This document shows, in pieces, positions 11,095 through 58,308 of a stretch of 64,000 nucleotides of DNA (positions are counted from its first letter, which is position 1; the number at the start of each line of letters is the position of its first letter). The DNA lies in assembly GCA_040285745.1 (NCBI GenBank), contig JAUFOR010000001.1, positions 1,116,001 through 1,180,000 on the forward strand, written 5' to 3'. The stretch comes from Barthelona sp. PCE (taxonomy: Eukaryota). The notes under the pieces were generated by a model that worked only from the letters and a program-made list of their open reading frames with translations, ran no database searches and was not told the DNA's origin. A program made the position numbers and the translations under genes.

Positions 11095-13212
11095 CTATTG
11101 ATTATGATAATCTGGCATGTGGTACTCAAAGATGGATGCTTCGGCCAGGAACGATGGAAGATGGAACGTTTCCACAGTGGGATTGATCGATTCTGGGTCT
11201 TCATCAACGTTATATGTTTTCAACACCATTGTCTTGGTCTCCTCCTCGTATGACATGTCTTGAATAACGTTGTTAGGCAGATTTGGATCGTGTTTTATCT
11301 TCATATCAGGAGAATATTGTAAATTGTCGTTTGTGAAAAAACGCGTTTTAATTGCACCATCTTCAACGTATACTTTAATGATACCATCCCTCACGTGTAT
11401 GTATGAATCTCCCACGAAATTAAGGAAACGATTACCTTCCTCAATTTTTTCATTCATATTATTCTGATAAAGGTGAACAGGCTCTAAGAAGCTTCCTGTT
11501 AACCAATCAAGACAGTGTAAATGTTGCGTTGTTGCAGCCCTACTGCGCGTATATACAACAAACAGCTGATGATCAGGTGTTTCAGCCAATGGACGAGGGT
11601 TAAAGTGAACATCACCTGTATATCCAGGTTCAAAAACAATGTGCTTTTGAATCTCCACGTCATACCCGTTGACATTAAGCTGAAAAAAATGGATTGCTTC
11701 ACTACATACAATGCACGCTGAATTATCAAAATGTGAACCATGAACACTTCGAACGTAAATATTCTGGGGAAGCTCTAAAATCATCTTTTCTCCCAAATAC
11801 ACCAAGCCTGTGTCATTGTCACGATAGTCAACATTTAATGGCAGCCCTTGAATAAAACCACAGTTTTCTGAACCATGATGAGGTAAAATGGTTATTACAG
11901 GCTTGGATTTTGATTCATTCAAGTGAATTTTGACACAAAACTCATCTTTTTCACTATGCTCCTTTGCCATTACAAAAAAATCATCTCCTTCATTTGGATG
12001 AACTGAAAAGATATGGCACCACATACGTGAATGCAGTTTCCTACGCCCACGCAGCACAATAAGCTTCCTTTCTTTAAAAAAAAAGTAATATCTTATCAAA
12101 GAGTCATCATACACTTCCGCTTTTCCATCAAAAAATATTTTCTTTGCTTTAAGTCTTTTCAAACGCACTACCTCATTATCAACTGCTCTGAATTTGATTG
12201 GGCCATAACGTTCTGTTATTTCATCAACACCATAAAAAACACAATCTTCATCATGAAAGTAATTATCGTTCAAGTCTATATGCTTCAAGTCATTGCAGAG
12301 TACATTCTTAAGATTCATTTCACCCCCTGCTATCCCCAATTCACCGTTTTCGATATGAACCACCACACATCTTGAACCAATAAGTAGCATTGACAAAACA
12401 TCTTGAGTGAGCGTTAATAATGCAATTTTTGAGTTTTTCTTAATATACAATCCTTTAAGCTGCGGAAACCTTTCTGTCAAGTTAACTTGGTTCCTCTGAC
12501 AGTCAAATATTATTAGTTCATCAATTTCTTGATAGCGAAACCTGACTGAGAATATGCAATCCGAGTTTAAGCACCTGAAGTGTTCTAAATGAACACCATG
12601 TAACTGCTCAATATCAGGTTCATGTGCCTCGTCCACGTCATCAACAGAAAAATTGTAATGCCATATGGTATCATCTCGGTAATTCCTCAACAAAATGTAG
12701 TTTGGAGTTCTCACCGAAATTGAGTAATATTCTCCAAGACATCTATATTCTTCGGTTAGCACATTTAATATGTAGGATTGTATCACTCTTCTATTATCAA
12801 CGGTTTCCCTAATGGCGAATAATAGGTGGTTTTCATCCATCGGAATTATTCTGCTTGATAGATTTTTGATCATCGGAAACGGAAATGGTATTCTCCTGCT
12901 TGTATGTTCATCGCTCATGATATCGTTAAACAATAAAATATCAAGATGAGTTAACATCTTACTGTCATCACGAAGCTGTTCGATGATCATGTACGATTCT
13001 CCAGCTTTTAATTTGGATGTGTATTGAAGAGGCTCATGCGTATCCTCCACATACCCAACAAAGTCCTTGTCTTCAATAGCGCTTTCAATGAGGCTGATAT
13101 CTTTGTTTTCTCTTGACTTAAGCAATATTAGGCCATCTTCCTCAAATATCAGCTTCCCCTCGGGATAAGTATTAATGATAAGGTCGTCCTCGAATTTACG
13201 AACCCTAGGCAT
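11095..13212 (-). CDS. Protein of unknown function (705 aa), paralog of 56201-58308
   Basis: Shared MPR(V/I)RKFEDDLII start, FNPRPL, and TYNVDEDPES...FH(L/V)PSFLAEASI end. Confidence 0.85.
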   Translation of the reverse strand: MPRVRKFEDDLIINTYPEGKLIFEEDGLILLKSRENKDISLIESAIEDKDFVGYVEDTHEPLQYTSKLKAGESYMIIEQLRDDSKMLTHLDILLFNDIMSDEHTSRRIPFPFPMIKNLSSRIIPMDENHLLFAIRETVDNRRVIQSYILNVLTEEYRCLGEYYSISVRTPNYILLRNYRDDTIWHYNFSVDDVDEAHEPDIEQLHGVHLEHFRCLNSDCIFSVRFRYQEIDELIIFDCQRNQVNLTERFPQLKGLYIKKNSKIALLTLTQDVLSMLLIGSRCVVVHIENGELGIAGGEMNLKNVLCNDLKHIDLNDNYFHDEDCVFYGVDEITERYGPIKFRAVDNEVVRLKRLKAKKIFFDGKAEVYDDSLIRYYFFFKERKLIVLRGRRKLHSRMWCHIFSVHPNEGDDFFVMAKEHSEKDEFCVKIHLNESKSKPVITILPHHGSENCGFIQGLPLNVDYRDNDTGLVYLGEKMILELPQNIYVRSVHGSHFDNSACIVCSEAIHFFQLNVNGYDVEIQKHIVFEPGYTGDVHFNPRPLAETPDHQLFVVYTRSRAATTQHLHCLDWLTGSFLEPVHLYQNNMNEKIEEGNRFLNFVGDSYIHVRDGIIKVYVEDGAIKTRFFTNDNLQYSPDMKIKHDPNLPNNVIQDMSYEEETKTMVLKTYNVDEDPESINPTVETFHLPSFLAEASIFEYHMPDYHNQ

Positions 13213-14119
13213 ATAGCTGTAATGAAGTGGGTGAATGTTGAGATAGTATATATATATTAAATATTAGTGCTTGTAAGTGGCATATAAAGATGATATAATA
13301 TATGTGAAGCGCGCATATGTGAAACAGAACTACATTTGCATTTCTATCCCCTCACAATTTCATTGATGTGGTTCGCAGGGCTTGTAGCGCGTGACAAGTA
13401 AGATGGTGGACGCGTACGGGCATTGGTTTGGTTGTGGGGCACGTTTTTGCTGTGTTGTGGGTGTTGCTGGCGGATAATATATTTGAGGGTTTTGCAGATG
13501 ATTTGGGTTTCTTTCAAACTTCTATAGCATGCATAATGATGTATCAGCTACCTTCTTGCCGTTGTACGCTTTAGCACCAATTGCAGTACAAGAATGTGGA
13601 TTAGAAGCGTTCATTTCAGAAGCACATTCTGATGTTGATTTTGCACCGCACTGCGGAACATTGTGTGTGTTTAAGTATCTGACGAGGTACAAGATCTCAC
13701 TTTACTTTTGCTGAACAGGGATTTTGAAAAGCAGGAATATGATTCTTGCTTTGTTCCTCCTAGAATATGAGCACTCAAAAGAAGAAGATTGAGCTTCAGA
13801 GTGGGATTCGAGGAAGATGAGCCTATTGTGGATGCAAGCACAGAGTACTTACACCCACAATAGTTTAAATAAATATAAAAAAATAATAGTATAAAAAGAG
13901 AACTGGTTTCTCTTTTCCCTCCCAGAATACAGCCGGGGGGCATCCAAGCAACCAACTGCCTCACTGGCAATCCACACTTCAGTGTAGACGAGATAAAAAA
14001 GAAGTGCCCAAAAAGCTCCACTGTCATGGGCTCCAGCCTTACATACACGCAAACACACAATTTTATACACGTTTTATGGACTAAAAAGCTTCACAAGATG
14101 CCGTTGGTGCAAAAATTTA

Positions 14120-14201
14120 TCTCCGGAGCCAGAATTGAACTAGCGACCTCAGGATTACCAAACTTTACAGTCCCGCGCTCTTCCAACTGAGCTATCCGGA
14201 G
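14120..14201 (-). tRNA. tRNA-Tyr(GTA) with a 9-nt intron at 37/38 (14156-14164)
   Basis: CTCCGGA/TCCGGAG acceptor stem, GCTC/GAGC D stem, CGGGA-CTGTAA[AGTTTGGTA]A-TCCTG anticodon arm, GCTAG-TTCAATT-CTGGC T arm, downstream T-run. Confidence 0.96.
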
Positions 14202-14954
14202 CAAACCTCCATTTTGAGTATTTTGGTTTTTTTGACGGAAATATTGCAACAAAAATATTAAGTATCAAATTGGTTATTCACAATTACGGTTGGTTTTCTC
14301 CTCCATCTCACGTAATTAGGGGTTAAGTATACCGAAAATAGTGTTGTAATCAAACGGTAGAGACCCGCCATCGATTAAAAATTACTAATTAGTTTTAATA
14401 TTTTTGAGAAATTTAATAATTGTTCTTTGTTTAAAATAAACTTGATTTGGGCCATACCACTAATGTACATTCATACAATACACAAATAGATTGTGAGATA
14501 ATTTGGAGGAATAGAGCGTACGTGTGTATTTTAATTTTTCACGTTTAATGGTTGCATGATTAGTGTATTTGAACCATTTAGGGATTAGAATGGTACTAGT
14601 TTTTCAAATGTCTACGGGTGTAAACGAGCACCGCACGCACGTAAATCTTTTACAGAAAACTTACTGCTAAGAACGTATTTTTATATTTTTACACACCTTT
14701 ATCGGGTATCATGTCCCGGGTTACACACCAAATGCGTGCGAAATGACACTTTTACTGTCATGGGGCATAGAACATTTCTGCATGCGTGGTTATGTATTTC
14801 AAGCTATTCTGTTGTTCGGGGGCCGCCGATGTGCACGTTTTACACAAAATAGCAGAGGAAAGATGCGTTAGTCATAACAGGTAAGAACCCTGTTTTCAGT
14901 TTTTTCATCTTCTTTCCCTTAGTTTTTTATATATTCTTCTTTGGAAAAGCTCTT

Positions 14955-17900
14955 ATGCAACAACGTGAAACAGTTCCCAGGTATCTTAACGGGGAACAAG
15001 GTATTTAAATTTTCATACCCTTTTTTTTTTAACTAACACTCAGTAGATTTCGAGCGTTTTGATCTCAAGCAGTGCATAGAGGACCGGAGATACGCCGACA
15101 TAACAAAGTTCTTACGCACACCCGCTCATGGTATTCGTAAATTGTCAGAGTACCTCATATCTGAAAACAAGGACATTAGCTTAACGTTTGATGGCACTTC
15201 TAAAGGCTTTAATCATTACGTAGGTGCTACAATTATGGTCAAAAAGTCTTTATTGGTTGCTTTTAATCAGAGATATCCTGATTTTTCAATTGCGGATTGG
15301 CGGCCAAGGGAAAACGCCGATGAGGATACAGTTTTTTCATATCCTATCTGGTTTTTCCCAATAGAAACTACCTCTGCTGACCACTTATGGGTTGCTTTTC
15401 GTTTTATGCTTGATTTTTTTCATTTTAACAAAGTTAATGCCAAGATTACTGTCTCTTTGGACGGTTGTCCTGCAAACATTTTGTTTTTAACCCAAATGAA
15501 CAGCTTTAAAGATGGATTTATCGAGAATATTAAGCTCATCTGTCGTCGTTACAGTTTAGTTTTTCCTTTGTTATTCGAAGGTAAAGAAGTCCCCGATATC
15601 ATGACAGAACCGCTTAAAGCGAACGTTTATCCACATGCGTGTATCAGTCATGCGTTTTTGAATTCAGGTATTTTTTGTTCACAGAGTGATCTGAGTTCTT
15701 TAACATCTACGCAGTTGATTGAGCGTTTAGACAAACAGATAGACCTCAGAACACTATTTGCTTCCTTATCCGGGTTAAGTGATGCCAAACAATCATTGAT
15801 GCATGTTGTTGTCAGTCTTCTTTCATGGACAGTCGATTTAATTGGCAAACTTAAGGTAAATGAACTGGATCATTTCGTCAGCAGAAACGTCGAGGTAAAG
15901 GAAGATAGTATTAAAGATAATCTTCTCAATGAAACTGTCTTTCTCACACTGTTTAAGGATGTTAGTTATGCCGATATCACCTCGAATGATCACTTTAATA
16001 AGGCTTTTCTCACCACTGTGATACGTTTACATTCAATCCAGTCCATTCTTTTGTTTCTTTTTGACAAGAGTTTATTTTATCGTTTATTAAGAGATATTTT
16101 TTCATTCATATCAATACATCACGAGTTTACCGGTGCTGATCTATTTGATTTGATGAAGCCTTCAGGCGAAATTTCTAAGGATTTTAATCCAAGAGCAGCT
16201 GATATGAATTCTCCTTTGACTCAGGAAATCCTAGCTCGTTTTCAATCATTTGAGGAGCTACTAATTACTCGTTTCCGGAGTCTCAAGCCTTCCAAAGCTT
16301 TAGATACAATGACTGATGTGCTAAAGAAAGGTTTTGCATCCAAGATAGTTTTTGGTGGTAGCACAGAAGTCAAGAGTTCACAAACGCAAAACATTGTCCA
16401 CTTTAAGTATCTAGCTAACTGTGGTAGGTTTATTGAAGAGATGTCATTAAGTGGAGAACAATATGCATTCTTGAATTTAATCTCCCAGTTCTTCCATTCT
16501 TTGCTTACTTTTCATTATAATGTCATCAAGGACAGTACAGATCGTAATACTGCATTCACACAGTTGAGTGAACTTTTTGATAAGAACTATGAACCACTTT
16601 GCGTTGATGGAAATGGACAGGGCTTTATTTTTGAGGCCAGAATCAGGAACAGGATTGTTAAATCTAGTATTTCATGTTCAGTGACTGATCCAGTCATTAA
16701 GACTGCAATGGGTTGGTTTTCAGATCTTCTCAAGTTGTTTCGTTTTTCTGTTGTTGATTGCTTGCTTAGGTACGATACAAAATGGAAGGATGTTCCCAGA
16801 CATGTTGCATTTCGTGCTTTAGACAAAGCTCAAGAGTTCTTTGATAGTACCAATCTTATTCGTATTCTCCCTGCTCTTTCTGATATCTTCCCTACTTCAA
16901 AGGATCTCATTGCATCTGGTTATCCCGTTGACCGCTTCTTTGGTATAAGTACTCATTGTTTGACAGAAGATGTTTTGTTTAAGCTGCATTATTCTCATAT
17001 TCCTTTTCTAGCTTTTAAAGTTGGTAGAGCCACGATATTTCTCACAAATTACGACATCAATGATGATGTTATGATCACTTCCGATCCTCAAGAGACTGTC
17101 TTTAGCTTTATTAATGGCAATTTTCTTCTTAGTACAACTCGTTTTGAAGCTTCTGTCTTAGAAGTTGACGATTACGCTAAAGTGCATTTGAGAAAGGCGA
17201 TGATTAACAGTATGCTTTCAGTTTTTAAAAAACAAGGTTTGATGTGTAATTTTGATCGAGTTCTAGCATCCAGAAAAAGATTACGCGACAATGGGGTTTT
17301 CAAAGTTCTTAGTAAGACTTTAAACTCTGTTTCCATATGTCATGATATGCATATTTTACAGTTGAATGGCTCTTTTTTGTTGGATGACACTGAGTATACG
17401 GTTTTCAATGTTGCTGTTGATAATGCTAGATCTGAGGTTGTTTCTACCGTTTTTAATGATGAGGGTGATGTTGCTGTTGACGTTTGTCGTCTAAACGTTA
17501 TTGGTGCCAGTAAGGAATTTATGTTTAAGGTTGGTCCTGGCTGCGAGATTACTCTCCCCTTTTTAGGTTCTCATTTATTATCATCTCCAATTGAATTCAA
17601 GTTGAAATTCACAAGAAAGAAGATGTATCGTGTGCACGGAACTCTAGCCAATCTTGATATTTGTTTTGTAGCAGTAGATAATGTTCTCCACACACTGCTG
17701 AAGCTTTACTCAGTATCCAAACCATATTTAGGCCAGATCAGTTACTCCATCAACTATGAAACCGTCGTTGTTCCTTCAATAGCAGCTAACATAATGAAGA
17801 TTCTTGGTAAGAATATTAATTTGCACCTGGCCTTTCACTTAACAGATCTTATCTCTTCAAGAATGTCCTCTGGTAAGATTTACTCCTTTGAATGTTTTAC

Positions 17901-18819
17901 ACGTAAATGGAATGAAATCATGAAACTGAAGCAAGCTAAGGACAATTTCGATGCTTCGGGTGATGGATTGTTTAAGAAGAAGACAGAGCAGTGGAACAAA
18001 CTTGTTCGAAAGGGTGAAAGAGTTAACATCACGTCTGTTTCTTTTGAAAACCTGATTCAGTTGCACAAACCTCTTGCCGAAACTTTTGCTTTTGATACTG
18101 ATGTCTACAGGAACGTCGATAGTAGCTATACCGATGATTTGTTGCTCAATCGTTTTGTTGCTATGGCTTTGGATTTTCTTCAGGTTAAACATCCAGATGC
18201 GTCAGATGATGCCTTTCCCAGCCACATTCACAAGTGCTGGACTAACCTCAACTGTGGAAATCGTTCACTAAGTGATATCCAACAACGTGTTGCATGGCTA
18301 CTTCAACATGATTCCGATTTTCAGCCGGATGCTGCAGCTGTTATGGCCTGTCGTGGGTTACGATTCGATCCGCTCAGGCACCAAGAATTTATTGATCTTA
18401 TGAAGGCCGATCCCATTTTTCCTATTGCATTGGACTCTGCAGAAGTTTCCAGATTGATTAATCGTCCACAGACACTAGGAATTAAGGATTTCTCTCGTAT
18501 GGCACCTCAAGTTGTTATTGCGCATAGTATTATGCAGTACACGTGCAAAGAAACATCGAAGCTAACGCGATTGAGAGATATTGCATATTATTTCAAGCTA
18601 ACTGCCATTGGTTATGAATTCTTTACAATCGACAATGTGACCGTTCCCGGTATGTTGACCAAAACTGGAATCGTAGACAACGCAATCAGAACAATGCTTG
18701 ATTTTGGAGGATTTACTTTTTCCCTTAAGCAGTACATCGTTTTGTGCACAAATGGAATCCCCGTTAAACGCACTATAGGGGAACGCAGCGGTTTTAAGAG
18801 TCAGAGAACCGATAGTTGA
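14955..18819 (+). CDS. DDE transposase of the hAT/P/MuDR/Kolobok/Dada clan, ~1270 aa; exons 14955-15000 and 15044-18819
   Basis: ISLTFDGTS (D, 15190), ITVSLDGCPAN (D, 15460), HACISHAF (CxxH, 15640-15651), TSDPQETVFS (E, 17092). A phase-1 intron joins MQQRETVPRYLNGEQ in frame. Confidence 0.78.
15001..15043 (+). other. Spliceosomal intron (43 nt) in the transposase gene; alternative in-frame acceptor at 15046
   Basis: GTATTT...T-run...ACTAACACTCAG; removes the in-frame TAA at 15034. Confidence 0.85.
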
Positions 18820-18891
18820 TTAACAAACAATAATAAAACCTATTTTATTTTAGCTATGTGGTAAGAGTAGTGAATACACATTATTGCAGAA

Positions 18892-19476
18892 TCATTTACT
18901 TTGGGTAACCATAAACGTAGGCACCATCATACCAGAAGTAGACGACGCCCCGTAACCATCAATAGTAGGATAGAAATTGCAACATGTTCCACAAATCATA
19001 GGATGTGGATACTCAGGGTTATGACCATGGCAATCTTTAAAACATGATCTCAATGGTTTGCTCTTATCAAACAAATACAGTAAATTCCCTGTACGGATAG
19101 CAATAAGAGCACTTCTAGTCTTGATGGTGAGAACACGAACATCATCTTCATTCTTAGAAGAGGTTGTTGTGACAAAAAATTGTCCTCCAGTACTAGGACA
19201 AACAGAATTCGTCTCAACATCACAGTGAACAATACCGCTGTTGATGCAGAACTTCTCCAAACCAGTTAACATAAGTAACAAAAACCCAATGTACTTGTGA
19301 CGATCGACATCATCACCAGTACAATCAAACGCAGAACTGTAATGTCCACATGGCTTCATAAAAAGCTCATGGAAACTGTTCTTTTTGTACTTAGCCTTGT
19401 CAGGAGCCAGAAGACGCATGACAGCAATTGTCTGACATAAATATTCAAACGTGTAACTGCCAGAGAGTGTACGCAT
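18892..19476 (-). CDS. Element cargo ORF, paralogous to the C-terminal half of 20849-22237; may be the 3' part of the 19490-20440 gene
   Basis: FEYLCQTIAVMRLLAP, SFHELFMK and RSALIAIRTGNLLYLFDK match the paralog. Confidence 0.75.
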   Translation of the reverse strand: MRTLSGSYTFEYLCQTIAVMRLLAPDKAKYKKNSFHELFMKPCGHYSSAFDCTGDDVDRHKYIGFLLLMLTGLEKFCINSGIVHCDVETNSVCPSTGGQFFVTTTSSKNEDDVRVLTIKTRSALIAIRTGNLLYLFDKSKPLRSCFKDCHGHNPEYPHPMICGTCCNFYPTIDGYGASSTSGMMVPTFMVTQSK

Positions 19477-19489
19477 GTTGACATGGTCT

Positions 19490-20440
19490 TCAAGTTACAT
19501 CACTACATGGAAAAATTCGTGATATCAATGCTTCCAAATCCTGTTCGGTACAGAAAGGAGTTTGTCGTTGCTCAAACTCGACAGTGTTGCGAAAACGCAA
19601 TGTATCTCCAAAATTAAGGTTGTCACAACTAATGTACTGATTCATACCAATATTATTTTTAGCAGAATCACCCAATAAATATATGGGGTTCAAACAAGAG
19701 CCGTCAACGAATCTACTCAAGTTAACAGCAATACTAGCAATCAAACTAGCAGAATCTGCACCACGGTGATGCATAATGCCAACCAAGATTACACCATTAA
19801 TATCTTCTTTATCTACACCTTCCGTGTTTTTAATACCCTGAAAAGACATAACATTAATAAGCATTTCCCACAAGATTCTAACTCTAGAACATTCTGGAGA
19901 CTCAGTTTCAGTTTCATCAAGATCTTCTGTTTTTGGGTCATTCGTCATTTTCATAGCATCGAGCATTTCGTTCAAAGAGACAAATGATAACCCTAAAAGA
20001 GAGAAAGGAACAACTTTAGCGTACGTACTGCCATCATGTTTGAACATACTAAAACCTAAATACTTGTTCATGTAATAAACACACTCCTTAACAAATTCAT
20101 TAAATTCCCACAAACGCTTCCTGCGGCTCCGCTCAGCTTCATCAATTTCAGGTTCTTCATCAACCTCAACAATTTCAGGTTCTTCATCAACCTCAACAAT
20201 TTCAGGTTCTTCATTAGGATCACTTTCACTGGACTCTTCATCAAATGTTTCCCAATCACTATCACTAGGTTCTTGACCGGGTTCTTCTTCATTGGTGTCC
20301 TCATCAAATGGTTGTTTCTCCTTAAAATCATTTGACGACTCTCCAACACGTTGGCATTTTTTATCGTGTATATCTTCATCATATTCAAATTCCGATGAAG
20401 AACGAGAGGTACCAGATATCATAACGTCGACTGGATGCAC
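19490..20440 (-). CDS. Element cargo ORF with an acidic N-terminus, unknown function
   Basis: 316-codon ORF with EEPEIVEVD repeats; ends 13 nt before the next ORF, in a different frame. Confidence 0.7.
   Translation of the reverse strand: MHPVDVMISGTSRSSSEFEYDEDIHDKKCQRVGESSNDFKEKQPFDEDTNEEEPGQEPSDSDWETFDEESSESDPNEEPEIVEVDEEPEIVEVDEEPEIDEAERSRRKRLWEFNEFVKECVYYMNKYLGFSMFKHDGSTYAKVVPFSLLGLSFVSLNEMLDAMKMTNDPKTEDLDETETESPECSRVRILWEMLINVMSFQGIKNTEGVDKEDINGVILVGIMHHRGADSASLIASIAVNLSRFVDGSCLNPIYLLGDSAKNNIGMNQYISCDNLNFGDTLRFRNTVEFEQRQTPFCTEQDLEALISRIFPCSDVT
20143..20214 (-). repeat. 27-bp coding tandem repeat (EEPEIVEVD, ~2.7 copies)
   Basis: caatttcaggttcttcat at 20143, 20170 and 20197. Confidence 0.9.
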
Positions 20441-20848
20441 TTTTACGCAATAAAACTAAATGTAAACCCAGAATTTAGATGAAAACTCTATAACAATTAA
20501 CGTACAAATACTTTTATGCTTTATAGCTTGGAAAACAAACGACTGTTCAATACTTCAAGCTAAAATTACAATAAAACAAACTTATTACAAATAGAATTTT
20601 TATTACAACATAATCGTTATTATATGAATGAAAACAGAGCTGTTATATCAAGAACAGCACCAAAAACAATAAGATTTCACGTTACTCATGAAGAGAAGGT
20701 GGACCTTTTTTTTATTATGCCAATTTCGCATATTTAGAAGAATTTGCTTGTTCTCAGTGAATTAAAACTACACGAACCATCGCCCACACACAACAAAAAT
20801 TGAATCAACGAATAGTTAAGATATGTACAAACCAATATTGTGAAAAAT

Positions 20849-22237
20849 TTACTTGGTCATAGAAATACTGAAATACGGCAACATCACAGCACCAGACCTC
20901 GCCATCTTGTACTTCTCAATGTCTCTGGGATTGGGAAAAAACACAGTGCCGGAGACAGAACAAGCAGGAAACAAAACCGGTGGGGGATGGCAGCAACACT
21001 TTGGAATGATACAATCTGTATTTCTAGGGATCTTATCGAAGAGATACATGAGGTTACCGGTGGACAGGGTGAGCAAAGCACTACGGAGATGAATTCTGGA
21101 TTCCGAAGTATGAAGTACTTCATCCTCGTCCTCATCATCTCTCGACTCGGTGACAATTATGAAACTGTCACTTGTCCCGATGCAAGGCGTAGTATCTTCA
21201 TCATCCAGGTTATAATGAACATCAACAGGATGAAGAACCAAGTACCGAATAGTGTTCAGAGCCAGATACAAATATCCAGCGTGCATGCGTTCATCGACGC
21301 TGTGAGGGGTCACATCTTCGTCAGGATTGTAATGAGATGGCATCTTGTGAAACAATTCGAAAAAACTGGAAGTTGGCATTCGAGTTTTTGGGGGTGACAG
21401 GATACGCAAAACAGATAAGGTCTGGAAAAGATAAGCAAAGTCAAATTCCAACCTATGATCGACTAACTTCAAATACATATCGAACGAACCCTTAACAACA
21501 GGAATTACAAAGTCTTTCCCGTTATGATTTATGTTAACATGCAGGTACTTATCGACTCCGGTACCGCACCGAATGCTAAACTTATAGTTAGACGATTTCC
21601 CATTTGCAATTTTAATGTTAAAGCCAGTATAATCAGGTGCTGTAACAGGCTTGGTAACCGTAAACTTTGAATCATCGTTAAAGAACCTATAGATGATACT
21701 AGTGATCATTGGGAGCGAAAGGTCCTGGAACGATTTGTCCTTCCTGAAATGATCGATACAAACCAAGGCGGGATGAACATAATCTCGTTCAAACACGAAC
21801 TGGTCATGATAACGGGCAAACTCGGCATAATACATAACGTTTCTACCCATGGTTGGATCAGAAACGAATGTATTAAACATGTTACGCAGATCGGAAATGG
21901 AATCACCAGACAACAAACACACAAGGCCGTTGGTAAAACGATACGGATCATAATAACCGATACGAACATGCACCCCTTGCTCATCAAGATCATAATCATA
22001 ACGAGCAGAGGCCAATAGATCAGGAGCAACATCATCAATAGGACCATCAACAACATCACGGCCACCGGTGGGACCATATACAACAGTAGATACATTCTGC
22101 TGTTTGGAAGAAGGACCTTCAGACGTTGCAACATCAACAGCTTTGCGTTTGCGACGAGCAATTGCACCGTTAGTAGACTCTTCTTCAGATCTGTTTGCTT
22201 TGTCATGTGGCTTCAAGTCAAACCTATCTTTTGTCAT
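20849..22237 (-). CDS. Element cargo protein (462 aa), unknown function; basic NLS-like RRKRK and Cys/His-rich C-terminus
   Basis: Long ATG-initiated ORF with an internal paralog in the same element. Confidence 0.82.
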   Translation of the reverse strand: MTKDRFDLKPHDKANRSEEESTNGAIARRKRKAVDVATSEGPSSKQQNVSTVVYGPTGGRDVVDGPIDDVAPDLLASARYDYDLDEQGVHVRIGYYDPYRFTNGLVCLLSGDSISDLRNMFNTFVSDPTMGRNVMYYAEFARYHDQFVFERDYVHPALVCIDHFRKDKSFQDLSLPMITSIIYRFFNDDSKFTVTKPVTAPDYTGFNIKIANGKSSNYKFSIRCGTGVDKYLHVNINHNGKDFVIPVVKGSFDMYLKLVDHRLEFDFAYLFQTLSVLRILSPPKTRMPTSSFFELFHKMPSHYNPDEDVTPHSVDERMHAGYLYLALNTIRYLVLHPVDVHYNLDDEDTTPCIGTSDSFIIVTESRDDEDEDEVLHTSESRIHLRSALLTLSTGNLMYLFDKIPRNTDCIIPKCCCHPPPVLFPACSVSGTVFFPNPRDIEKYKMARSGAVMLPYFSISMTK

Positions 22238-23425
22238 CGTTTAACGTAATTCAACAAGGGAAACAAATGATAAATAAGAAAGTAAGTTGAAAGCAGGTTA
22301 TTGGAGAAAATACAAATAAACACCCCTGGGAGATGTATACACAAGATTAACACTCGTACAAGGTCAATAATATATTGACCAAGCATATACAACAATATTA
22401 CCAAAAAGCTCACATAAAGTTATAATACACAAATAACCCGGCCTAAGCCGAGTTACCAGGAAATTAAGGTAATGTACAACAAATAATATACACAAGAATT
22501 AGGACATGATACCATAAACAATATTTTCATCCTTTACACACAATTTCTCATTTCTAAAACACTGAAACGTAGGATTCATACGTAATTGTGCACGAAAATG
22601 GAGGAGATCACAGTGAAAACAAACCTCATAAAAAAACAAATATTATAACATCACACTTCATCAAATATACGAAGAGTAAGCACTGAAAGCGGGCAATTTA
22701 CAGCGCAGCGAGTACAATTATGATGGGTTGACCAGCACAAACCCCTTATAACGAGAGTTTGCTTTTTCGTCATCACACTTTCACGTTTCATGTGAAAAAA
22801 TCATAGTAGTACACTCACAGCGCAAGAGGGGCCACTTTAATATGGATGTTTTACATTTCAATTTTCACAACTTTCTGGGGTATTAATTTATAATAATCAA
22901 ATTTAATTGCGTATAGCCATTGTATATATTTACATACCAGTACATAGCGCTACCTATTATACTTTTTTTGGAAGTAGGCAATTAATCATTTTTGATTTTC
23001 TTTTTTATAAATGAGGAGACAGGCCTCATACAATGGGTTACACTTCATATTGAGGTTGGTGGAAGATTTGGAATTGGAAAATATTTTTCAGAAAACATTT
23101 TGTAATCCAATAACAATAAGATAAACAAGCATGACATTACAATCGTATCCCTGTTAGGAAGATCTTGCAGTTGATTTTGAACAGAGAATGGAATAGAACA
23201 TATGCTGGTGTTATTACCAGTTTTCCTATTTATTCTAGTTGTACTGCTGCTTAGTAATTGAAATACGAGATGTATGACTTACAAACTGAAGATGGTAGCC
23301 CGTATGCGGCACCATGACCTCTGTAAAGAATCTCCTACTATCCTTTACTAATCGTTCATAGTTTTCTATGGGCATTACTTACAGTAGCAGGACCCCTCCA
23401 CCAAAAGCTTTTTGAAAAGGCAGAG

Positions 23426-25011
23426 TCTGCCGACTGAGCTATCCGGAGCAAACCTCCATTTTGAGTATTTTGGTCGTTTGACGGAAATGTTGCAACGAAA
23501 GTGTCAAGTATCAAATTGGTTATTCACAATTATGGTTGGTTTTCTCGTCCATCTCACGTAATTAAGGGTTAAGTATATTGAAAATAGTGACGTGATCAAA
23601 CGGTAGAGACCCGCCATCGATTAAAAATTACTAATTAGTTTTAATATTTTTGAAAAATTTTATAATTATTCATTGTTTAAAATAAGCTTGATTTGGGCCA
23701 TACCACTAATGTACATACATACACAAATGGATTGTGAGATAATTTAGGGGAATAGAACGTATGTGTGTGTATTTTAATTTTTCACGTTTAATGGTTTCAT
23801 GATTAGTTTATTTGAACCATATAGGTACTAGTTTTTCAAATGTCTACGGGTGTAAACGAGAATGTTGACTCACCACACACACACGTAAATCTTTTACAAA
23901 AAACTTACTGCTAAGAACGTATTTTTATATTTTTACACACCTTTATCGGGCATCATGTCTCGGGTTACACACTAAATGCTTGCGAAAGGACACTTTTACT
24001 GTCATGTGGGCATAGAACATTTCTGAATGTATGGTTATGTATTTCAAGCTATTCTGTTGTTCGGGGGTCACCGATGTGCACGTTTTACACAAAATAACAG
24101 AGGAAAGATGCGTTAGTCACAACAGGTAAGAACCCTGTTTTCAGTTTTTTCATCTTCTTTCCCTTAGTTTTTTATATATTCTTCTTTGGAAAAGCTCTTA
24201 TGCAACAACGTGAAACAGTTCCCAGGTATCTTAACGGGGAACATTTCGCATTTTGTTTTATCACCGTTTTCACGGATTACTCAAAATCCCCACGGGCATC
24301 ACAGCAGCGAGGACGGGCGCTTTGGCGAAGAGGGCAACTATTTGGACGGCATTGGGCTGTTATTTTTTATTCAGTGCAACCTTGTTTGACTACAACTCAG
24401 TGGCTGTTGAAGCATATAAATTGGCTGTTTCAGTGTGGACGAGCACGGGTTTTCGTGACACGGGCATACTGCGCACGTAATTGAAGTTTTAGATTTTTTA
24501 ATTGAACTTTCCAATGTTTCGTACAGGAATTACTAATATTTATACTTTTTTTGGAAGTAGGCAATTAATCATTTTTGATTTTCTTTTTTATAAATGAGGA
24601 GACAGGCCTTATACAATGGGTTACACTTCATATTGAGGTTGGTGGAAGATTTGGATTAGGAAAAAATATTTTTCAGAAAACATTTTGTAATCCTATAACA
24701 ATAAGATAAACAAGCATGACATTACAATCGTATCCCTGTTAGGAAGATCTTGCAGTTGATTTTGAACAGAGAATGGAATAGAACATATGCTGGTGTTATT
24801 ACCAGTTTTCCTATTTATTCTAGTTGTACTGCTTAGTAATTGAAATACGAGATGTATGGACTTCCAAACTGAAGATGGTAGCCCGTATGCGGCACCACCA
24901 TGACCTCTGTAAAGAATCTCCTACTATCCTTTACTAATCGTTCATAGTTTTCTATGGGCATTACTTACAGTAGCAGGACCCCTCCACCAAAAGCTTTTTG
25001 AAAAGGAAGAG
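23426..25011 (+). mobile_element. Non-autonomous derivative 1 (A-B-C, 1586 bp)
   Basis: tRNA 5' fragment plus arm A to 24243, unique filler B 24244-24539, arm C 24540-25011. Confidence 0.88.
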
Positions 25012-26598
25012 TCTTCCTACTGAGCTATCCGGAGCAAACATCCATTTTGAGTATTTTGGTCGTTTGACGGAAATATTGCAACGAAAGTGTTAAGTATCAA
25101 ATTGGTTATTCACAATTACGGTTGGTTTTCTCGTCCATCTCACGTAATTAAGGGTTAAGTATACCGAAAATAGTGTTGTAATCAAACGGTAGAGACCCAC
25201 AGTTAGTTAAAAATTACTAATTAGTATTAATTTTTTTGAGAAATTTTATAATTGTTCTTTGTTTAAAATAAACTTGATTTGGGCCATACCACTAATGTAC
25301 ATTCATACAATACACAAATGGATTGTGAGATAATTTAGGGGAATAGAACGTATGTGTGTATTTCAATTTTTCACGTTTAATGGTTTCATGATTAGTTTAT
25401 TTGAACCATATAGGTACTAGTTTTTCAAATGTCTACGGGTGTAAACGAGAATGTTGACTCACCACACACACACGTAAATCTTTTACAAAAAACTTACTGC
25501 TAAGAACGTATTTTTATATTTTTACACACCTTTATCGGGCATCATGTCCCGGGTTACACACCAAATGCGTGCGAAAGGACACTTTTACTGTCATGGGCAT
25601 AGAGCATTTCTGCATGCGTGGTTATGTATTTCAAGCTATTCTGTTGTTCGGGGGCCGCCGATGTGCACGTTTTACACAAAATAGCAGAGGAAAGATGCAT
25701 TAGTCACAACAGGTAAGAACCCTGTTTTCAGTTTTTTCATCTTCTTTCCCTTAGTTTTTTATATATTCTTCTTTGGAAAAGCTCTTATGCAACAACGTGA
25801 AACAGTTCCCAGGTATCTTAACGGGGAACATTTCGCATTTTGTTTTATCACCGTTTTCACGGATTACTCAAAATCCCCACGGGCATCACAGCAGCGAGGA
25901 CGGGCGCTTTGGCGAAGAGGGCAACTATTTGGACGGCATTGGGCTGTTATTTTTTATTCAGTGCAACCTTGTTTGACTACAACTCAGTGGCTGTTGAAGC
26001 ATATAAATTGGCTGTTTCAGTGTGGACGAGCACGGGTTTTCGTGACACGGGCATACTGCGCACGTAATTGAAGTTTTAGATTTTTTAATTGAACTTTCCA
26101 ATGTTTCATACAGGAATTACTAATATTTATACTTTTTTTGGAAGTAGGCAATTAATCATTTTTGATTTTCTTTTTTATAAATGAGGAGACAGGCCTTATA
26201 CAATGGGTTACACTTCATATTGAGGTTGGTGGAAGATTTGGATTAGGAAAAAATATTTTTCAGAAAACATTTTGTAATCCTATAACAATAAGATAAACAA
26301 GCATGACATTACAATCGTATCCCTGTTAGGAAGATCTTGCAGTTGATTTTGAACAGAGAATGGAATAGAACATATGCTGGTGTTATTACCAGTTTTCCTA
26401 TTTATTCTAGTTGTACTGCTTAGTAATTGAAATACGAGATGTATGGACTTCCAAACTGAAGATGGTAGCCCGTATGCGGCACCACCATGACCTCTGTAAA
26501 GAATCTCCTACTATCCTTTACTAATCGTTCATAGTTTTCTATGGGCATTACTTACAGTAGCAGGACCCCTCCACCAAAAGCTTTTTGAAAAGGAAGAG
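25012..26598 (+). mobile_element. Non-autonomous derivative 2 (A-B-C, 1587 bp)
   Basis: Near-identical to the previous unit; identical ORFs offset by 1587. Confidence 0.88.
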
Positions 26599-27331
26599 TC
26601 TTCCTACTGAGCTATCCGGAGCAAACATCCATTTTGAGTATTTTGGTCGTTTGACGGAAATATTGCAACGAAAGTGTTAAGTATCAAATTGGTTATTCAC
26701 AATTACGGTTGGTTTTCTCGTCCATCTCACGTAATTAAGGGTTAAGTATACCGAAAATAGTGTTGTAATCAAACGGTAGAGACCCACAGTTAGTTAAAAA
26801 TTACTAATTAGTATTAATTTTTTTGAGAAATTTTATAATTGTTCTTTGTTTAAAATAAACTTGATTTGGGCCATACCACTAATGTACATTCATTTATAAA
26901 TAGATTGTGAGATAATTTAGGGGAATAGAGCGTATGTGTGTATTTTATTTTTTCACGTTTAATGGTTGCATGATTAGTGTATTTTAACCATATAGGTACT
27001 AGTTTTTCAAATGTCTACGGGTGTAAACGAGAATGTTGACTCACCACACACACACGTAAATCTTTTACAAAAAACTTACTGCTAAGAACGTATTTTTATA
27101 TTTTTACACACCTTTATCGGGCATCATGTCCCGGGTTACACACCAAATGCGTGCGAAAGGACACTTTTACTGTCATGGGCATAGAGCATTTCTGCATGCG
27201 TGGTTATGTATTTCAAGCTATTCTGTTGTTTGGGGGCCGCCGATGTGCACGTTTTACACAAAATAACAGAGGAAAGATGCGTTAGTCACAACAGGTAAGA
27301 ACCCTGTTTTCAGTTTTTTCATCTTCTTTCC
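26599..27331 (+). mobile_element. Truncated fourth copy (arm A only)
   Basis: Matches arm A up to ...catcttctttcc, then diverges. Confidence 0.85.
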
Positions 27332-27609: not shown

Positions 27610-27681
27610 CTCGAGCGCAGGGAATTGAACCCTGGTCTCCGGTGCGACAGACCGGAATAATAGCCATTATACGACGCCCGA
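27610..27681 (-). tRNA. tRNA-Asp(GTC)
   Basis: TCGGGCG/CGCTCGA acceptor stem, CCGGT-CTGTCGC-ACCGG anticodon arm, CAGGG-TTCAATT-CCCTG T arm, TTTTT terminator. Confidence 0.95.
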
Positions 27682-56200: not shown

Positions 56201-58308
56201 CTATTCAATGTGATCATGGGGCATATGGTATTCAGTGATGGACGCCTCAGCCAGAAACGATGGAACATGGAACGTCTCAATCTCAGGATTCATCGATTCA
56301 GGGTCTTCATCAACATTGTAAGTCGATAAAACCATCGTCTTTGTTTCTTTTTCATAAACTACGGACTGCACAACGTTGTTGGGTAGATTTAAATTGTTGT
56401 TTTCGTCATAAATTGGTGGTAATATGGTATTAGTGAAAAATCGCGTTTTGATGATACCATCAAGTACGGTAACTCTATAAACACCTTCATTAACTCTAAA
56501 GTGTGTGTCTCCCAAAAAATGTTTAAAACAATTACCTTCAATCATATCATCACAACGTGTGCGCTTGTAAAGCAAAACTGGTTCTGAGAATCTACCAGTT
56601 GACCAATCTAAACAGTACAAATTCTCTGCCTCTAGTTCTTCATTACATGTCCGTACAACAAAAAGGTGGTGATCTATCTCTACTAATGGACGAGGATTGA
56701 AGAAAACATCTGAAACATTTTCAATATTGAAAATGTAGTGCTTTTCAATCTTCACGTTATGTTCATTTATCATAAACTGGAAAAAATGTATTGACTGTGT
56801 ACATAAAATGCACACATAGTTGTCAATCATCGAACAAAAAGAACTGTTAAAATACAAGTTTGGAGGACTTTCCAAAATCATTGTATCACCTAGAAAAGCA
56901 AAATATCTTTCATGATTGCTATAGTCAACACAATACGGCAACCCTAGGATAAAATTTTGATAAAAGTAGCTGCCATGTGGAAATCTCGTAATAATTGGTG
57001 TTAAATCTGGACCCTCCCAATGAATTTTCACAAGTTGTTTTCCTTCTCCCCTTATATTTTCCTCTGCTATTACATAAAAATTATCTTCTTTAGTTATGTA
57101 AACTGAACGTTCTCGATAATAAACTGGATAATCAAAATTTTCTCTTAAATTATGAATTGAGATAATTTTTTTTCCTTTTAAATTAAAAAAATAACGTCTG
57201 CTCTGATGATCATCAAGATAGTTAGCTATCCCATTGTAAAAAACCTTTCTGGGAAAAAGATCATGCACACGCATCACTTCAAGATCATTAGTTCTGAACT
57301 TAACAGGACCATAACGCTTTGTCTGTTTGCAAACACCATAAAAAACACACTCTTCATCGTGAAAATCTTGTGAAAAGTCAATATGCCTGTAATGACTACA
57401 GGATATTCTATTACACTCCATAGATCCTGAAGATTTAAAAATTTCACCTTTTTCAATATGTACAGCAACATAAACTGAGCCATCACTGAAAATAATAGAC
57501 AAAACATCTTTTGTTAGTGTCAATAAAGTAAAACTATATAAATAACTTAAACTAATCTCTTTAATTTGTGGAAATTTTTCCACTAAATCAATACGTTTTC
57601 TTTGACGATCAAACATAAATATATGGTCTATTCCAGTAGCAGATGAATCAAAACATACACAATCAGCATTTAAACATTTTAAAAAAGTAAAGTGGTTCAT
57701 ACCATGATTTGATAATAGTGCTATATCAGGTCGATAGGCTTCATTCATGTCATTCACAGAGAAATTGTATTGGTATAATGTAAATTGTTCATCAGGGACA
57801 GTCAACATAATGTAGTTTGAAAAGGCTTGGAAATGACCGTATTCTCCAAGACATCTGTACTTTTCAGTCATTATGTTAAAGATGTAGCACTGTGTCGATT
57901 GCCCGTCCATGTGGTCGTTATCGATATCAGTAATTGCAAAGAAAAGGTGTTTTTGATCTAATGGTAAAATAACATCTTTGTATAAATATCGTTCAAAATT
58001 GTCAAGTTCAAAAGGAAAAGGAACTATTGTGCTTGTGTGTTCGTCACTGCTGATTTCTTCGAATGATAGGATCTCAAGCTCGGATAAAATATTATTTTCG
58101 TTGTGAATACGTCGAATGAAAATATAACCTTGCACGTGTCTTCCACATATCCAACAAAATCCTTTCCTTCTATGGCGCTTTGAACAAGATTGTCAATAAT
58201 TTCCTGATTTGAACTGAGCATTCGAACACCTTGCCCCTCAAAAATTATTCTGCCCTCTGGGTTAGACTCGATGATCAGGTCATCTTCAAATTTTCTAATA
58301 CGAGGCAT
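56201..58308 (-). pseudogene. Paralog of 11095-13212 with a frame break near 58136 (frameshifting deletion or atypical intron)
   Basis: The N-terminus (MPRIRKFEDD...YVEDT) and the body (QGYIFIRR...) are in different frames; roughly a dozen codons of the paralog are missing at the break. Confidence 0.7.

What the first reader, a model, noticed from the sequence alone, without database searches (positions are those of the whole stretch)
14955..18819. Divergent, intron-containing ~1270 aa DDE transposase with a long unexplained C-terminal extension
Seen: FDGT, LDGCPAN, CISH and DPQETVFS occur in the order D-D-CxxH-E, with ~480 aa between CxxH and E and ~570 aa after E. Known: this arrangement defines the hAT/P/MuDR/Kolobok/Dada/IS256 clan. 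Only ~60 aa precede the first D and no zinc finger is visible. Inference: the C-terminal region could carry target recognition, such as tRNA gene DNA or Pol III factors.
Basis: partly seen in the sequence, partly recalled or inferred. Interest (0 to 1): 0.8.

Follow-up and report, generated by a model that had tools for sequence, protein, structure and literature searches.

The report
Two-copy orphan gene, possible diverged transposase
This is a real 1,273-residue gene found only in the tiny-genomed protist Barthelona sp. PCE, in two copies; weak but consistent hints suggest it descends from a hAT/P-type cut-and-paste transposase, though this could not be proven.

Summary
The gene is real. It has two exons (14955-15000 and 15044-18819) and encodes 1273 aa. 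It equals the annotated Barthelona sp. PCE protein P0003.

The only relative in about 5.8 billion and 1.84 billion proteins is a 95% identical paralogue on another contig. Pfam, NCBIfam, PHROGs and PDB sequence searches find nothing.

Three weak lines point to a hAT/P-clan DDE transposase:
- TSDPQETVFS matches the catalytic-glutamate block of a hAT profile I built. 4 of 3000 shuffles reach its score, 1.1% over eight blocks.
- All ten nearest named language-model clusters are hAT or P-element RNase H families, at scores 0.78-0.81.
- A low-confidence N-terminal model (pLDDT 44) has an RNase H-like strand order, and Hermes is Foldseek's top hit at E 0.015.

Against this, the N-terminal D and CxxH blocks score at chance. 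There is no zinc finger, no D-x-W, and no TIR or TSD. VIA Z never exceeds 5.5.

Verdict: probably (about 45%) a very diverged, low-copy or domesticated transposase-derived gene. The C-terminal 570 aa remain unexplained, and tRNA targeting is not supported.

The parts
14955..15000 (+). Exon 1: ATG plus 15 codons (MQQRETVPRYLNGEQ) and the first base of codon 16. It lies inside repeat module A.
   Evidence: The same N-terminus is found in P0003 and P0001.
15001..15043 (+). 43-nt spliceosomal intron: GTATTT ... T run ... CTAAC ... CAG. An alternative in-frame acceptor, TAG, ends at 15046 and is the one used in the paralogue's annotation.
   Evidence: P0003 has V16 and P0001 lacks it.
15044..18819 (+). 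Exon 2, coding aa 16-1273, with the TGA stop at 18817-18819.
15187..15198 (+). FDGT. D65 lies in the middle of predicted strand beta-1 and is the candidate first catalytic Asp.
   Evidence: The best position of the hAT block-1 PSSM in the whole protein is aa 62, but at only 5.6 bits; 1448 of 3000 shuffles reach it.
15457..15477 (+). LDGCPAN. D155 lies at the end of predicted strand beta-4 and is the candidate second catalytic Asp.
   Evidence: The hAT profiles instead align this stretch to their CxxH block, at chance level.
15640..15651 (+). CISH, the only CxxH in the protein. It lies in a predicted helix 60 aa after D155.
15652..17076 (+). Region of about 475 aa between CxxH and the E motif. 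It is predicted almost wholly helical and is a candidate insertion domain.
   Evidence: DSSP of the low-confidence model. Foldseek returns only generic helical solenoids for it.
17077..17106 (+). TSDPQETVFS. E699 lies at the start of a predicted helix. This is the only stretch that matches a hAT profile above chance.
17107..18816 (+). C-terminal 570 aa of unknown fold. It includes the most variable part between the paralogues (aa 801-1000), an identical stretch (aa 1039-1135, which holds HIHKCWTNLNC), and two basic segments.
   Evidence: No hit in any library.
14179..14998 (+). Repeat module A. It comprises the first 23 nt of tRNA-Tyr, 753 bp of its upstream flank, and exon 1 up to two bases short of its end. 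It is 91-93% identical to part of each unit of the tandem array. Homology ends 2 nt before the 5' splice site.
14120..14201 (-). Intact tRNA-Tyr(GTA) gene with a 9-nt intron.
22957..27331 (+). Tandem array of 2.75 units with a period of about 1586 bp. Each unit is X (768 bp), then a 23-nt 5' fragment of tRNA-Tyr, then module A with an exon-1 copy but no gene body.

Best explanation
The locus is a genuine, spliced, protein-coding gene of Barthelona sp. PCE. Its 1273-aa soluble product exists in two dispersed copies kept intact by selection.

My best reading is that roughly the first 720 residues are a very diverged RNase H-fold DDE module of the hAT/P 'C/DxxH' clan. The proposed order is: strand beta-1 with D65, beta-2, beta-3, helix alpha-1, beta-4 ending at D155, beta-5, CxxH at 215-218, an all-helical insertion of about 480 aa, and a helix that starts at E699 within TSDPQETVFS.

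If the protein is active, D65, D155 and E699 would hold two metal ions for DNA nicking and strand transfer, with H218 at the scissile phosphate as in Hermes. This step is inferred, not shown.

The protein has no zinc finger, no D-x-W, no detectable hAT dimerisation domain and no inverted-repeat ends. It uses host-like codons and exists in only two copies. I therefore think it is a low-copy or domesticated transposase-derived gene rather than a canonical active transposon. The C-terminal 570 aa are an added module of unknown fold and role.
For: 1. Real gene under constraint.
- The frame is 1260 codons long and the intron is canonical.
- Both copies are intact. Their 62 differing columns are unevenly spread: 0 in aa 401-500, 20 in aa 801-1000, and 0 in aa 1039-1135. 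The permutation p is 0.008.

2. The copies are dispersed and the unit is small.
- The paralogue P0001 lies on a different contig (766,953 bp versus 1,334,541 bp).
- The two downstream neighbours (310 aa and 462 aa) have no paralogue at 90% identity or more.

3. The E motif.
- I built a hAT profile from 53 natural transposases. It hits Hermes at E 1.4e-51 with all catalytic blocks aligned.
- Its only or top hhalign hit on the target is aa 660-705 / 694-703, which aligns with yP.La..IPATSAPSERVFS.
- As a 14-column block the match scores 15.2 bits, reached by 4 of 3000 shuffles. The family-wise figure over 8 blocks is 1.1%.
- Among all 70 ORFs of at least 100 aa in the window, the next best score is 7.6 bits.

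4. Language-model neighbours of aa 30-745 of the exon-2 translation.
- All ten best named clusters are DUF659, ZBED1 RNase-like, hAT or P-element TNP-like RNase H families, with scores of 0.78-0.81.
- Several of these clusters lack the hAT C-terminus, so this line is partly independent of point 3.

5. Fold.
- The AF2 single-sequence model of aa 17-262 (pLDDT 44.2, pTM 0.39) gives the order beta-beta-beta-alpha-beta-beta, with D65 inside beta-1 and D155 at the end of beta-4.
- Seven of Foldseek's first 10 PDB rows are Hermes chains (best E 0.015, probability 0.84). The other three are Mos1 transposase and an Argonaute.

6. Precedent for the long insertion. Kat1, a domesticated hAT transposase, has C402/H405 and E895, about 490 aa apart. 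The target has 481 aa (passages of PMC4763223).
Against: No sequence method reaches significance for the protein as a whole.
- The hhalign score is 21.6-22.2 (P 0.14-0.18), and 7 of 92 whole-protein shuffles reach it. Distant true hAT members left out of the profile score 236-833.
- The N-terminal region scores at chance against two hAT N-terminal profiles: 50 of 120 and 52 of 120 shuffles reach its score with A4, and 66 of 100 and 55 of 100 with the DUF659/ZBED1-like profile A5.
- The co-linear eight-block chain test gives z 1.84, with 43 of 1000 shuffles at or above the real score. Negative controls do no worse: 27 of 1000 for the 1131-aa orphan and 53 of 1000 for HSP70.
- The profile places its CxxH block on LDGCPAN, not on CISH.

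Hallmarks are missing.
- D65 is followed by G-T, whereas D-x-W is invariant in 53 of 53 hAT sequences.
- The TRWxS tryptophan block is absent.
- There is no Pfam hit at E up to 10 to Dimer_Tnp_hAT, DUF659, TNP-like or any other transposase family.
- There is no C-x-x-C.
- D155 to C215 is 60 aa, against 17-40 aa in Hermes, Kat1 and P.
- No TIR or TSD is found around the gene, and the convergent neighbour's frame ends only 73 bp after the stop.

The other lines are weak.
- Both structural models are of low confidence.
- Atlas scores under 0.9 are 'a lead only', and a third of shuffled proteins also get ten hits within one clan.
By my arithmetic, a 1-in-800 hit per protein is expected a few times in a proteome of 5064 proteins.
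Confidence: 0.45

Rival explanations
1. This is a lineage-specific Barthelona protein unrelated to transposases. Its N-terminal alpha/beta domain merely has a common beta-beta-beta-alpha-beta arrangement, and the D/D/CxxH/E pattern and the TSDPQETVFS match are coincidences. The two copies arose by an ordinary dispersed gene duplication that carried the promoter module A along.
For: - No family, PDB or database relative was found by any sequence method.
- The N-terminal blocks and the block chain score at chance, with negative controls scoring alike.
- The bare motifs are common in shuffles.
- Codon usage is like that of host genes (r 0.94).
- No TIR or TSD is present.
- Many other genes in this window also lack any Pfam hit: 10 of the 27 ORFs scanned.
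- Another orphan family in the window is also multi-copy.
Against: - The E-block hit is rare under shuffling (4 of 3000; 1.1% family-wise) and is the clear outlier among the window's 70 ORFs.
- It falls at the start of a helix after a long helical region, downstream of an RNase H-like N-terminal domain, which is where a hAT/P enzyme would have it.
- The language-model neighbours and Foldseek's top hit point independently to the same clan.
Confidence: 0.4
2. This is an active autonomous DNA transposon of a Dada-like kind that targets tRNA genes. Module A with its tRNA-Tyr fragment would be one end of the element, and the C-terminal extension would read the tRNA gene or Pol III factors.
For: - All 4 copies of module A in the window start at the same point, nt 23 of tRNA-Tyr. 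Three of them are tandem duplicates of each other, so this amounts to only two independent junctions.
- The gene is dispersed to a second contig while its downstream neighbours are not.
- Dada elements insert inside tRNA genes, including tRNA-Tyr in Perkinsus. They lack long TIRs and encode long transposases of the same clan (passages of PMC3706591).
Against: - The tRNA-Tyr is intact and not split. No 6-7 bp TSD is present, and no matching tRNA fragment lies at the other side of the gene.
- The protein has none of the CCCC and CCHC zinc fingers found in all Dada transposases.
- Only two copies exist, and they differ by 5% in protein sequence.
- The array pattern is explained more simply by tandem duplication of a segment that starts inside the tRNA.
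- The flanks of the second copy could not be read.
Confidence: 0.07
3. The protein derives from another kind of mobile or viral element, not a DDE enzyme of the hAT/P clan, or from a strongly diverged conserved cellular protein that only profile or structure methods would recognise.
For: - The top three unfiltered language-model hits are unnamed eukaryotic clusters (scores 0.83-0.84).
- The large helical middle region resembles generic solenoids in the poor model.
Against: No specific family emerged from any search. The only family-specific signals all point to hAT/P.
Confidence: 0.08

Closest known systems
hAT superfamily transposases (Hermes; solved structures 2bw3, 4d1q, 8edg)
   Same: - The order of elements matches: acidic residue in beta-1, acidic residue after beta-4, CxxH, an all-helical insertion, and Glu at a helix start.
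- The E-motif context TS.P.E.VFS matches the profile's TSAPSERVFS at 7 of 10 positions.
- F lies at E+3, and an Arg at E+16 matches Hermes R588 and Kat1 R911.
- Hermes is Foldseek's top hit for the N-terminal model.
   Different: - There is no BED finger, no D-x-W, no TRWxS tryptophan block and no Pfam Dimer_Tnp_hAT hit.
- Spacings are longer: D to D is 90 aa against 68, and D to CxxH is 60 aa against 17-28.
- 574 aa follow the Glu, where hAT enzymes have about 40.
- No 8-bp TSD or TIR was found.
- The profile-profile score is not significant.
Kat1, the domesticated hAT transposase of Kluyveromyces lactis (passages of PMC4763223)
   Same: It is a single-gene, host-kept transposase relative. 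It has a very long insertion between CxxH (402-405) and the catalytic Glu (895), about 490 aa against 481 aa here. Its sequence similarity to other hAT enzymes is limited.
   Different: Kat1 keeps the BED finger, W312 at D+2 and the basic cluster after the Glu, and it acts on defined TIRs at the MAT locus. None of these features is seen here.
P element transposase / THAP9 (6p5a; passages of PMC8230255)
   Same: - It belongs to the same clan, with D in beta-1, D in beta-4, [C/D]xxH right after beta-5, an insertion domain and E in alpha-4.
- TNP-like RNase H_N clusters are among the ten nearest language-model neighbours.
   Different: There is no THAP finger and no Pfam hit to the TNP-like RNase H_N, GBD or RNase H_C models at E up to 10. 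The insertion is about 480 aa against about 190 aa. I could not build a P-family profile for a direct test.
Dada transposons (PMC3706591, passages)
   Same: They encode long, intron-containing transposases of the C/DxxH clan and are associated with tRNA genes, including tRNA-Tyr in Perkinsus. They have no long TIRs.
   Different: Dada elements sit inside their target gene with 6-7 bp TSDs and carry CCCC and CCHC zinc fingers. Here the tRNA is intact, no TSD is present and the protein has no C-x-x-C.

Membership tests
RNase H-like fold DDE transposase/integrase superfamily | A five-stranded mixed sheet in the order beta1-beta2-beta3-alpha1-beta4-(alpha2)-beta5, with Asp in beta-1, Asp after beta-4 and Glu/Asp on a later helix, all meeting at one site. 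| tested here: inconclusive
hAT superfamily | D-x-W in strand beta-1. W is invariant in 53 of 53 profile sequences, and W182 of Hermes is needed for hairpin formation. | tested here: not met
   The sequence is F-D65-G-T-S, and no D-x-W occurs in the N-terminal domain. The hAT block-1 score is 5.6 bits, reached by 1448 of 3000 shuffles.
hAT superfamily | A CxxH motif 17-28 aa after the second Asp, followed by L-x-L. | tested here: inconclusive
   One CxxH is present (aa 215-218), but it lies 60 aa after D155. The profile's CxxH block fits best at aa 154 (LDGCPAN), at chance level: 1279 of 3000 shuffles reach the score.
hAT superfamily | A conserved TRW(W/N)S tryptophan block in the insertion domain (W319 of Hermes). 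| tested here: not met
   The best hit is 2.6 bits at aa 964, which lies after the Glu and so out of order. 1755 of 3000 shuffles reach this score.
hAT superfamily | A C-terminal hAT dimerisation region (Pfam PF05699) containing the catalytic S-E-R-x-F-S. | tested here: inconclusive
   There is no Pfam hit at E up to 10, even on short pieces. At the level of the 14-column block, however, aa 690-703 score 15.2 bits, reached by 4 of 3000 shuffles. hhalign extends the match to aa 660-705, but with P 0.14.
hAT superfamily | An N-terminal BED zinc finger. | tested here: not met
   Only 64 aa precede D65, no C-x-x-C occurs anywhere, and there is no zf-BED hit.
hAT superfamily | Short terminal inverted repeats and an 8-bp target-site duplication. 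| tested here: not met
   No inverted pair with matching flanks was found between 14090-15045 and 18700-18960, nor in 13000-23500. The true limits of the duplicated unit are unknown, because the second copy's DNA could not be read.
P element / THAP9 superfamily | A THAP finger and the TNP-like RNase H_N, GTP-binding insertion and RNase H_C domains. | tested here: inconclusive
Dada superfamily | [quoted passage not shown] | tested here: not met
   The protein has no C-x-x-C or C-x(2-4)-C pair. The definition comes from passages of PMC3706591.
Dada superfamily | Insertion at a fixed site inside a tRNA or snRNA gene, with a 6-7 bp TSD. | tested here: not met
   The tRNA-Tyr at 14120-14201 is whole (54.9 bits). 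No TSD and no tRNA fragment lie on the far side of the gene.

The most novel reading that the evidence does not exclude
The gene founds a new, deep lineage of the C/DxxH clan of DDE transposases. The lineage would have no zinc finger, a helical insertion of about 480 aa and a 570-aa C-terminal module that takes over DNA or chromatin targeting. It survives as two copies in the smallest known genome of a free-living eukaryote, either domesticated for a host DNA-rearrangement task or still mobile at very low copy number. Its promoter and first exon come from a repeat anchored at tRNA-Tyr.
Probability: 0.25. Interest if true: 0.65.

Novelty: new variant of a known kind. Interest (0 to 1): 0.45.

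Why it matters
Barthelona sp. PCE has a 10.2-Mb genome with 4.46% repeats, reported as the smallest known for a free-living eukaryote (passages of PMC11316075). A transposase-derived gene kept intact in two copies in such a streamlined genome would probably be doing host work, as Kat1, RAG1 and THAP9-like genes do. It would also extend the known range of the hAT/P clan into a deep metamonad branch, with an architecture not described for that clan. If the transposase reading is wrong, this is one more lineage-restricted protein and of little wider interest.

Tried and rejected
- **Own-genome search.** No genome is held for this window, so the paralogue's locus, the copy number at the DNA level and the element ends could not be examined.
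- **Sequence searches with no result.** Pfam on the whole protein and on 11 pieces at E up to 10 gave only CNOT11 and MptE-like, at E 0.05-0.13. NCBIfam and PHROGs gave nothing. PDB phmmer on the whole protein and on five pieces gave nothing relevant. The metagenome scan with six peptide patterns gave 72 pattern matches, none confirmed. The earlier-findings index returned nothing in three look-ups.
- **Internal features.** There are no internal repeats and no membrane segment.
- **Ends.** No TIR or TSD was found. Unit X of the tandem array has no homology to the gene's 3' flank, so the array is not a deletion derivative that shares both ends with the gene.
- **Insertion into the array.** I considered that 14999-22956 is one 8-kb insertion into the array. 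I rejected this as unsupported. Homology resumes 296 bp into X, and the stretch holds ordinary-looking host genes, including a possible CENP-C-like cupin (E 0.024), that are not duplicated.
- **Rfam.** A search at E up to 1 over the array gave nothing beyond tRNA-Asp.
- **The 760-aa model.** Its pLDDT is 36.9, and Foldseek returned only generic helical solenoids at TM 0.1-0.2. I treat these matches as meaningless.
- **C-terminal half.** It could not be folded.
- **Aligned hAT sequences as AF2 input.** I did not give AF2 an alignment of hAT sequences with the target, because that would impose the fold and be circular.
- **Supplements.** The supplementary files of the genome paper were not seen. 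They may hold expression or localisation predictions for this protein.
Full report
**What is there.** The window is nuclear DNA of the metamonad Barthelona sp. PCE. Eight of eight window proteins that I looked up by exact sequence are in the public collection, all on one 1,334,541-bp contig. The genome paper describes a 10.2-Mb assembly in 8 contigs with 4.46% repeats and 5064 proteins (passages of PMC11316075). The surroundings are ordinary gene-dense chromosome: HSP70, a ubiquitin hydrolase, FKBP, a polycystin channel, VPS9, a kinase, SRP72, a Y-family polymerase and others. They are mixed with ORFs that have no Pfam hit, 10 of the 27 scanned.

**Gene model.** The flagged feature is a stop-to-stop frame of 1260 codons at 15037-18819. 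It is preceded by a 46-nt first exon (14955-15000) and a 43-nt intron of the form GTATTT...CTAAC...CAG. The spliced 1273-aa product is the annotated hypothetical protein P0003.

**Relatives.** Only one relative appears in a word-seeded search of about 5.8 billion proteins and in an exhaustive phmmer run over 1.84 billion representatives. It is P0001, 1272 aa, 95% identical, from a different contig of the same genome. JGI metagenomes hold nothing.

- The two downstream neighbours (310 aa and 462 aa) have no paralogue at 90% identity or more. The duplicated unit is therefore small and dispersed, not a large segmental duplication.
- Both copies are intact.
- Their 62 differing alignment columns are unevenly spread. 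There are 8 in the first 300 residues, none in 401-500 or in 1039-1135, and 20 in 801-1000. The permutation p is 0.008. This argues for selection on a working protein.
- Codon usage matches the host genes (r 0.94).

**Is it a DDE transposase? Sequence tests.** As bare motifs the evidence is trivial. CxxH occurs at least once in 44% of shuffled sequences, and ExxFS in 28%. Pfam finds nothing on the whole protein or on short pieces at E up to 10. NCBIfam, PHROGs and PDB sequences also find nothing. The session's Pfam copy lacks the new hAT RNase H models PF27041 and PF27039: they are precomputed on my hAT hits but were not reported.

To run a real profile test I fished natural hAT transposases from metagenome contigs with a degenerate DNA motif.

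- The scan returned 120 loci.
- Six intronless full-length ORFs were confirmed as Dimer_Tnp_hAT, four of them also with zf-BED.
- A search with these six gave 99 relatives.
- I aligned 53 full-length sequences as A4.
- The A4 profile hits Hermes at E 1.4e-51. D180/W182, D248, C265/H268, W319 and E572 all fall on its conserved blocks.

Results against this profile:

- The target's only or top hhalign match is aa 660-705 (core 694-703, TSDPQETVFS) on yP.La..IPATSAPSERVFS, which puts E699 on the catalytic Glu. The score is 21.6-22.2 with P 0.14-0.18. 7 of 92 whole-protein shuffles reach it.
- Left-out distant hAT members score 236-833.
- I cut the profile objectively into its eight most informative 14-column blocks. 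The E block scores 15.2 bits at aa 690, reached by 4 of 3000 shuffles. The family-wise figure is 1.1%. It is the outlier among all 70 window ORFs, where the next best is 7.6 bits.
- The other seven blocks are at chance.
- The first-Asp block does find its best place in the whole protein at aa 62 (LTFDGTSKGFNHYV), but with a score that 1448 of 3000 shuffles reach.
- The CxxH block prefers LDGCPAN over CISH.
- The co-linear chain of blocks (z 1.84, 43 of 1000 shuffles) is no better than in negative controls: 27 of 1000 for a 1131-aa orphan and 53 of 1000 for HSP70.

A second N-terminal profile came from a DUF659/ZBED1-like subfamily (A5, 26 sequences). It again places its catalytic-Asp strand on ISENKDISLTFDGT-SKGFNHYVGAT, but below the shuffle mean: 66 of 100 shuffles reach the score. 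The A4 N-terminal profile gives 50 of 120 and 52 of 120.

**Other lines.** The language-model Atlas gives only lead-level scores. For the whole protein the named neighbours are DUF659, ZBED1 RNase-like, hAT and TNP-like families at 0.77-0.79. For aa 30-745, all ten best named clusters are from these hAT and P-element RNase H families, at 0.78-0.81. The tool warns that a third of shuffled proteins also get ten hits in one clan. It does not say how often that clan is this one.

Structure prediction without an alignment is poor. The model of aa 17-776 has pLDDT 36.9, and the model of aa 17-262 has pLDDT 44.2 and pTM 0.39. Even so, both give the order beta(D65)-beta-...-alpha-beta(D155 at its end), and the 760-aa model adds a long helical region and a helix that starts at E699. 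In the shorter model the full strand order is beta-beta-beta-alpha-beta-beta.

- **Foldseek** with the short model lists Hermes chains in 7 of its first 10 rows. The best has E 0.015, probability 0.84 and TM 0.24. Mos1 transposase and an Argonaute fill the other three.

**What is missing.**

- No zinc finger of any kind: there is no C-x-x-C in the protein.
- No D-x-W, which is invariant in my 53 hAT sequences and functionally needed in Hermes and Kat1 (passages of PMC4763223).
- No insertion-domain tryptophan block.
- No TIR or TSD.
- The convergent neighbour's frame ends 73 bp after the stop.
- D155 to C215 is 60 aa. It is 17 aa in Hermes, 25 aa in Kat1, 28 aa in my profile's reference sequence and 36-40 aa in P/THAP9.

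The long gap from CxxH to Glu (481 aa) does have a precedent in Kat1, at about 490 aa.

**The tRNA and the repeat.** An intact tRNA-Tyr(GTA) gene with a 9-nt intron lies 753 bp upstream on the other strand. The 820 bp from nt 23 of that tRNA to 2 nt before the gene's 5' splice site form module A, which includes most of exon 1. Module A recurs at 91-93% identity in each unit of a tandem array at 22957-27331. The array has a 1586-bp period and 2.75 units. In the array, module A is followed by unrelated sequence instead of the gene.

The promoter and first exon are thus a repeated module, and the paralogue shares the same exon 1. A tandem duplication with one breakpoint inside the tRNA explains the array. 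Nothing in it requires transposition, and Dada-type insertion is contradicted: the tRNA is whole, no TSD is present and no Dada zinc fingers are found.

**Verdict.** The gene is real and its motif pattern is as described. My estimate is about 45% that it descends from a hAT/P-clan DDE transposase and now persists as a low-copy or domesticated gene. I give about 40% that it is an unrelated lineage-specific protein. The remainder goes to an active tRNA-linked element or to another origin.

Noticed in passing
window 22957-27331 and 14179-14998: There is a tandem array of 2.75 units with a period of about 1586 bp and 95-97% identity. Each unit carries a 23-nt 5' fragment of tRNA-Tyr (A box included) joined to 820-bp module A. 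The same module sits upstream of the target gene, and homology stops 2 nt before the splice donor. The longest ORF in a unit is 128 aa and is not in the protein collection.
   Followed up: partly
window 11098-13212 (-) and 56204-58192 (-): A Barthelona-specific orphan protein family. The two window copies are 45% identical over 649 aa. The first also has a paralogue at 90% identity or more (P0010, 700 aa) on a third contig. It has no Pfam hit.
   Followed up: partly
window 18895-19476 (-) and 19493-20422 (-): A 194-aa ORF has a weak CENP-C/Mif2 cupin hit (E 0.024). It directly follows, in another frame, an annotated 310-aa acidic protein with a 27-bp tandem repeat at 20139-20214. The two may be one CENP-C-like gene split by a very short intron or a frameshift.
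   Followed up: partly
window 14120-14201 (-) and 27610-27681 (-): tRNA-Tyr(GTA) has a 9-nt intron after the anticodon; ARAGORN in intron mode miscalls it Asn. tRNA-Asp(GTC) lies 280 bp beyond the truncated last unit of the tandem array.
   Followed up: yes
window 6320-31602: A 25-kb stretch in which none of the eight large ORFs scanned has a Pfam hit at E up to 0.001. It contains both tRNAs, the tandem array and the two multi-copy orphan genes. The 866-aa ORF at 6320-8917 is unusually AT-rich (GC 29.5%, GC3 23%).
   Followed up: no
L084:5624-7717 (+), a metagenome locus fetched as a hAT control: The same contig that carries a 913-aa hAT transposase also encodes a PIF/Harbinger-type transposase (Plant_tran and DDE_Tnp_4), so two DNA transposons are nested or adjacent.
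   Followed up: no
A Pfam blank on the N-terminal half of a hAT-like protein therefore says little.
   Followed up: yes
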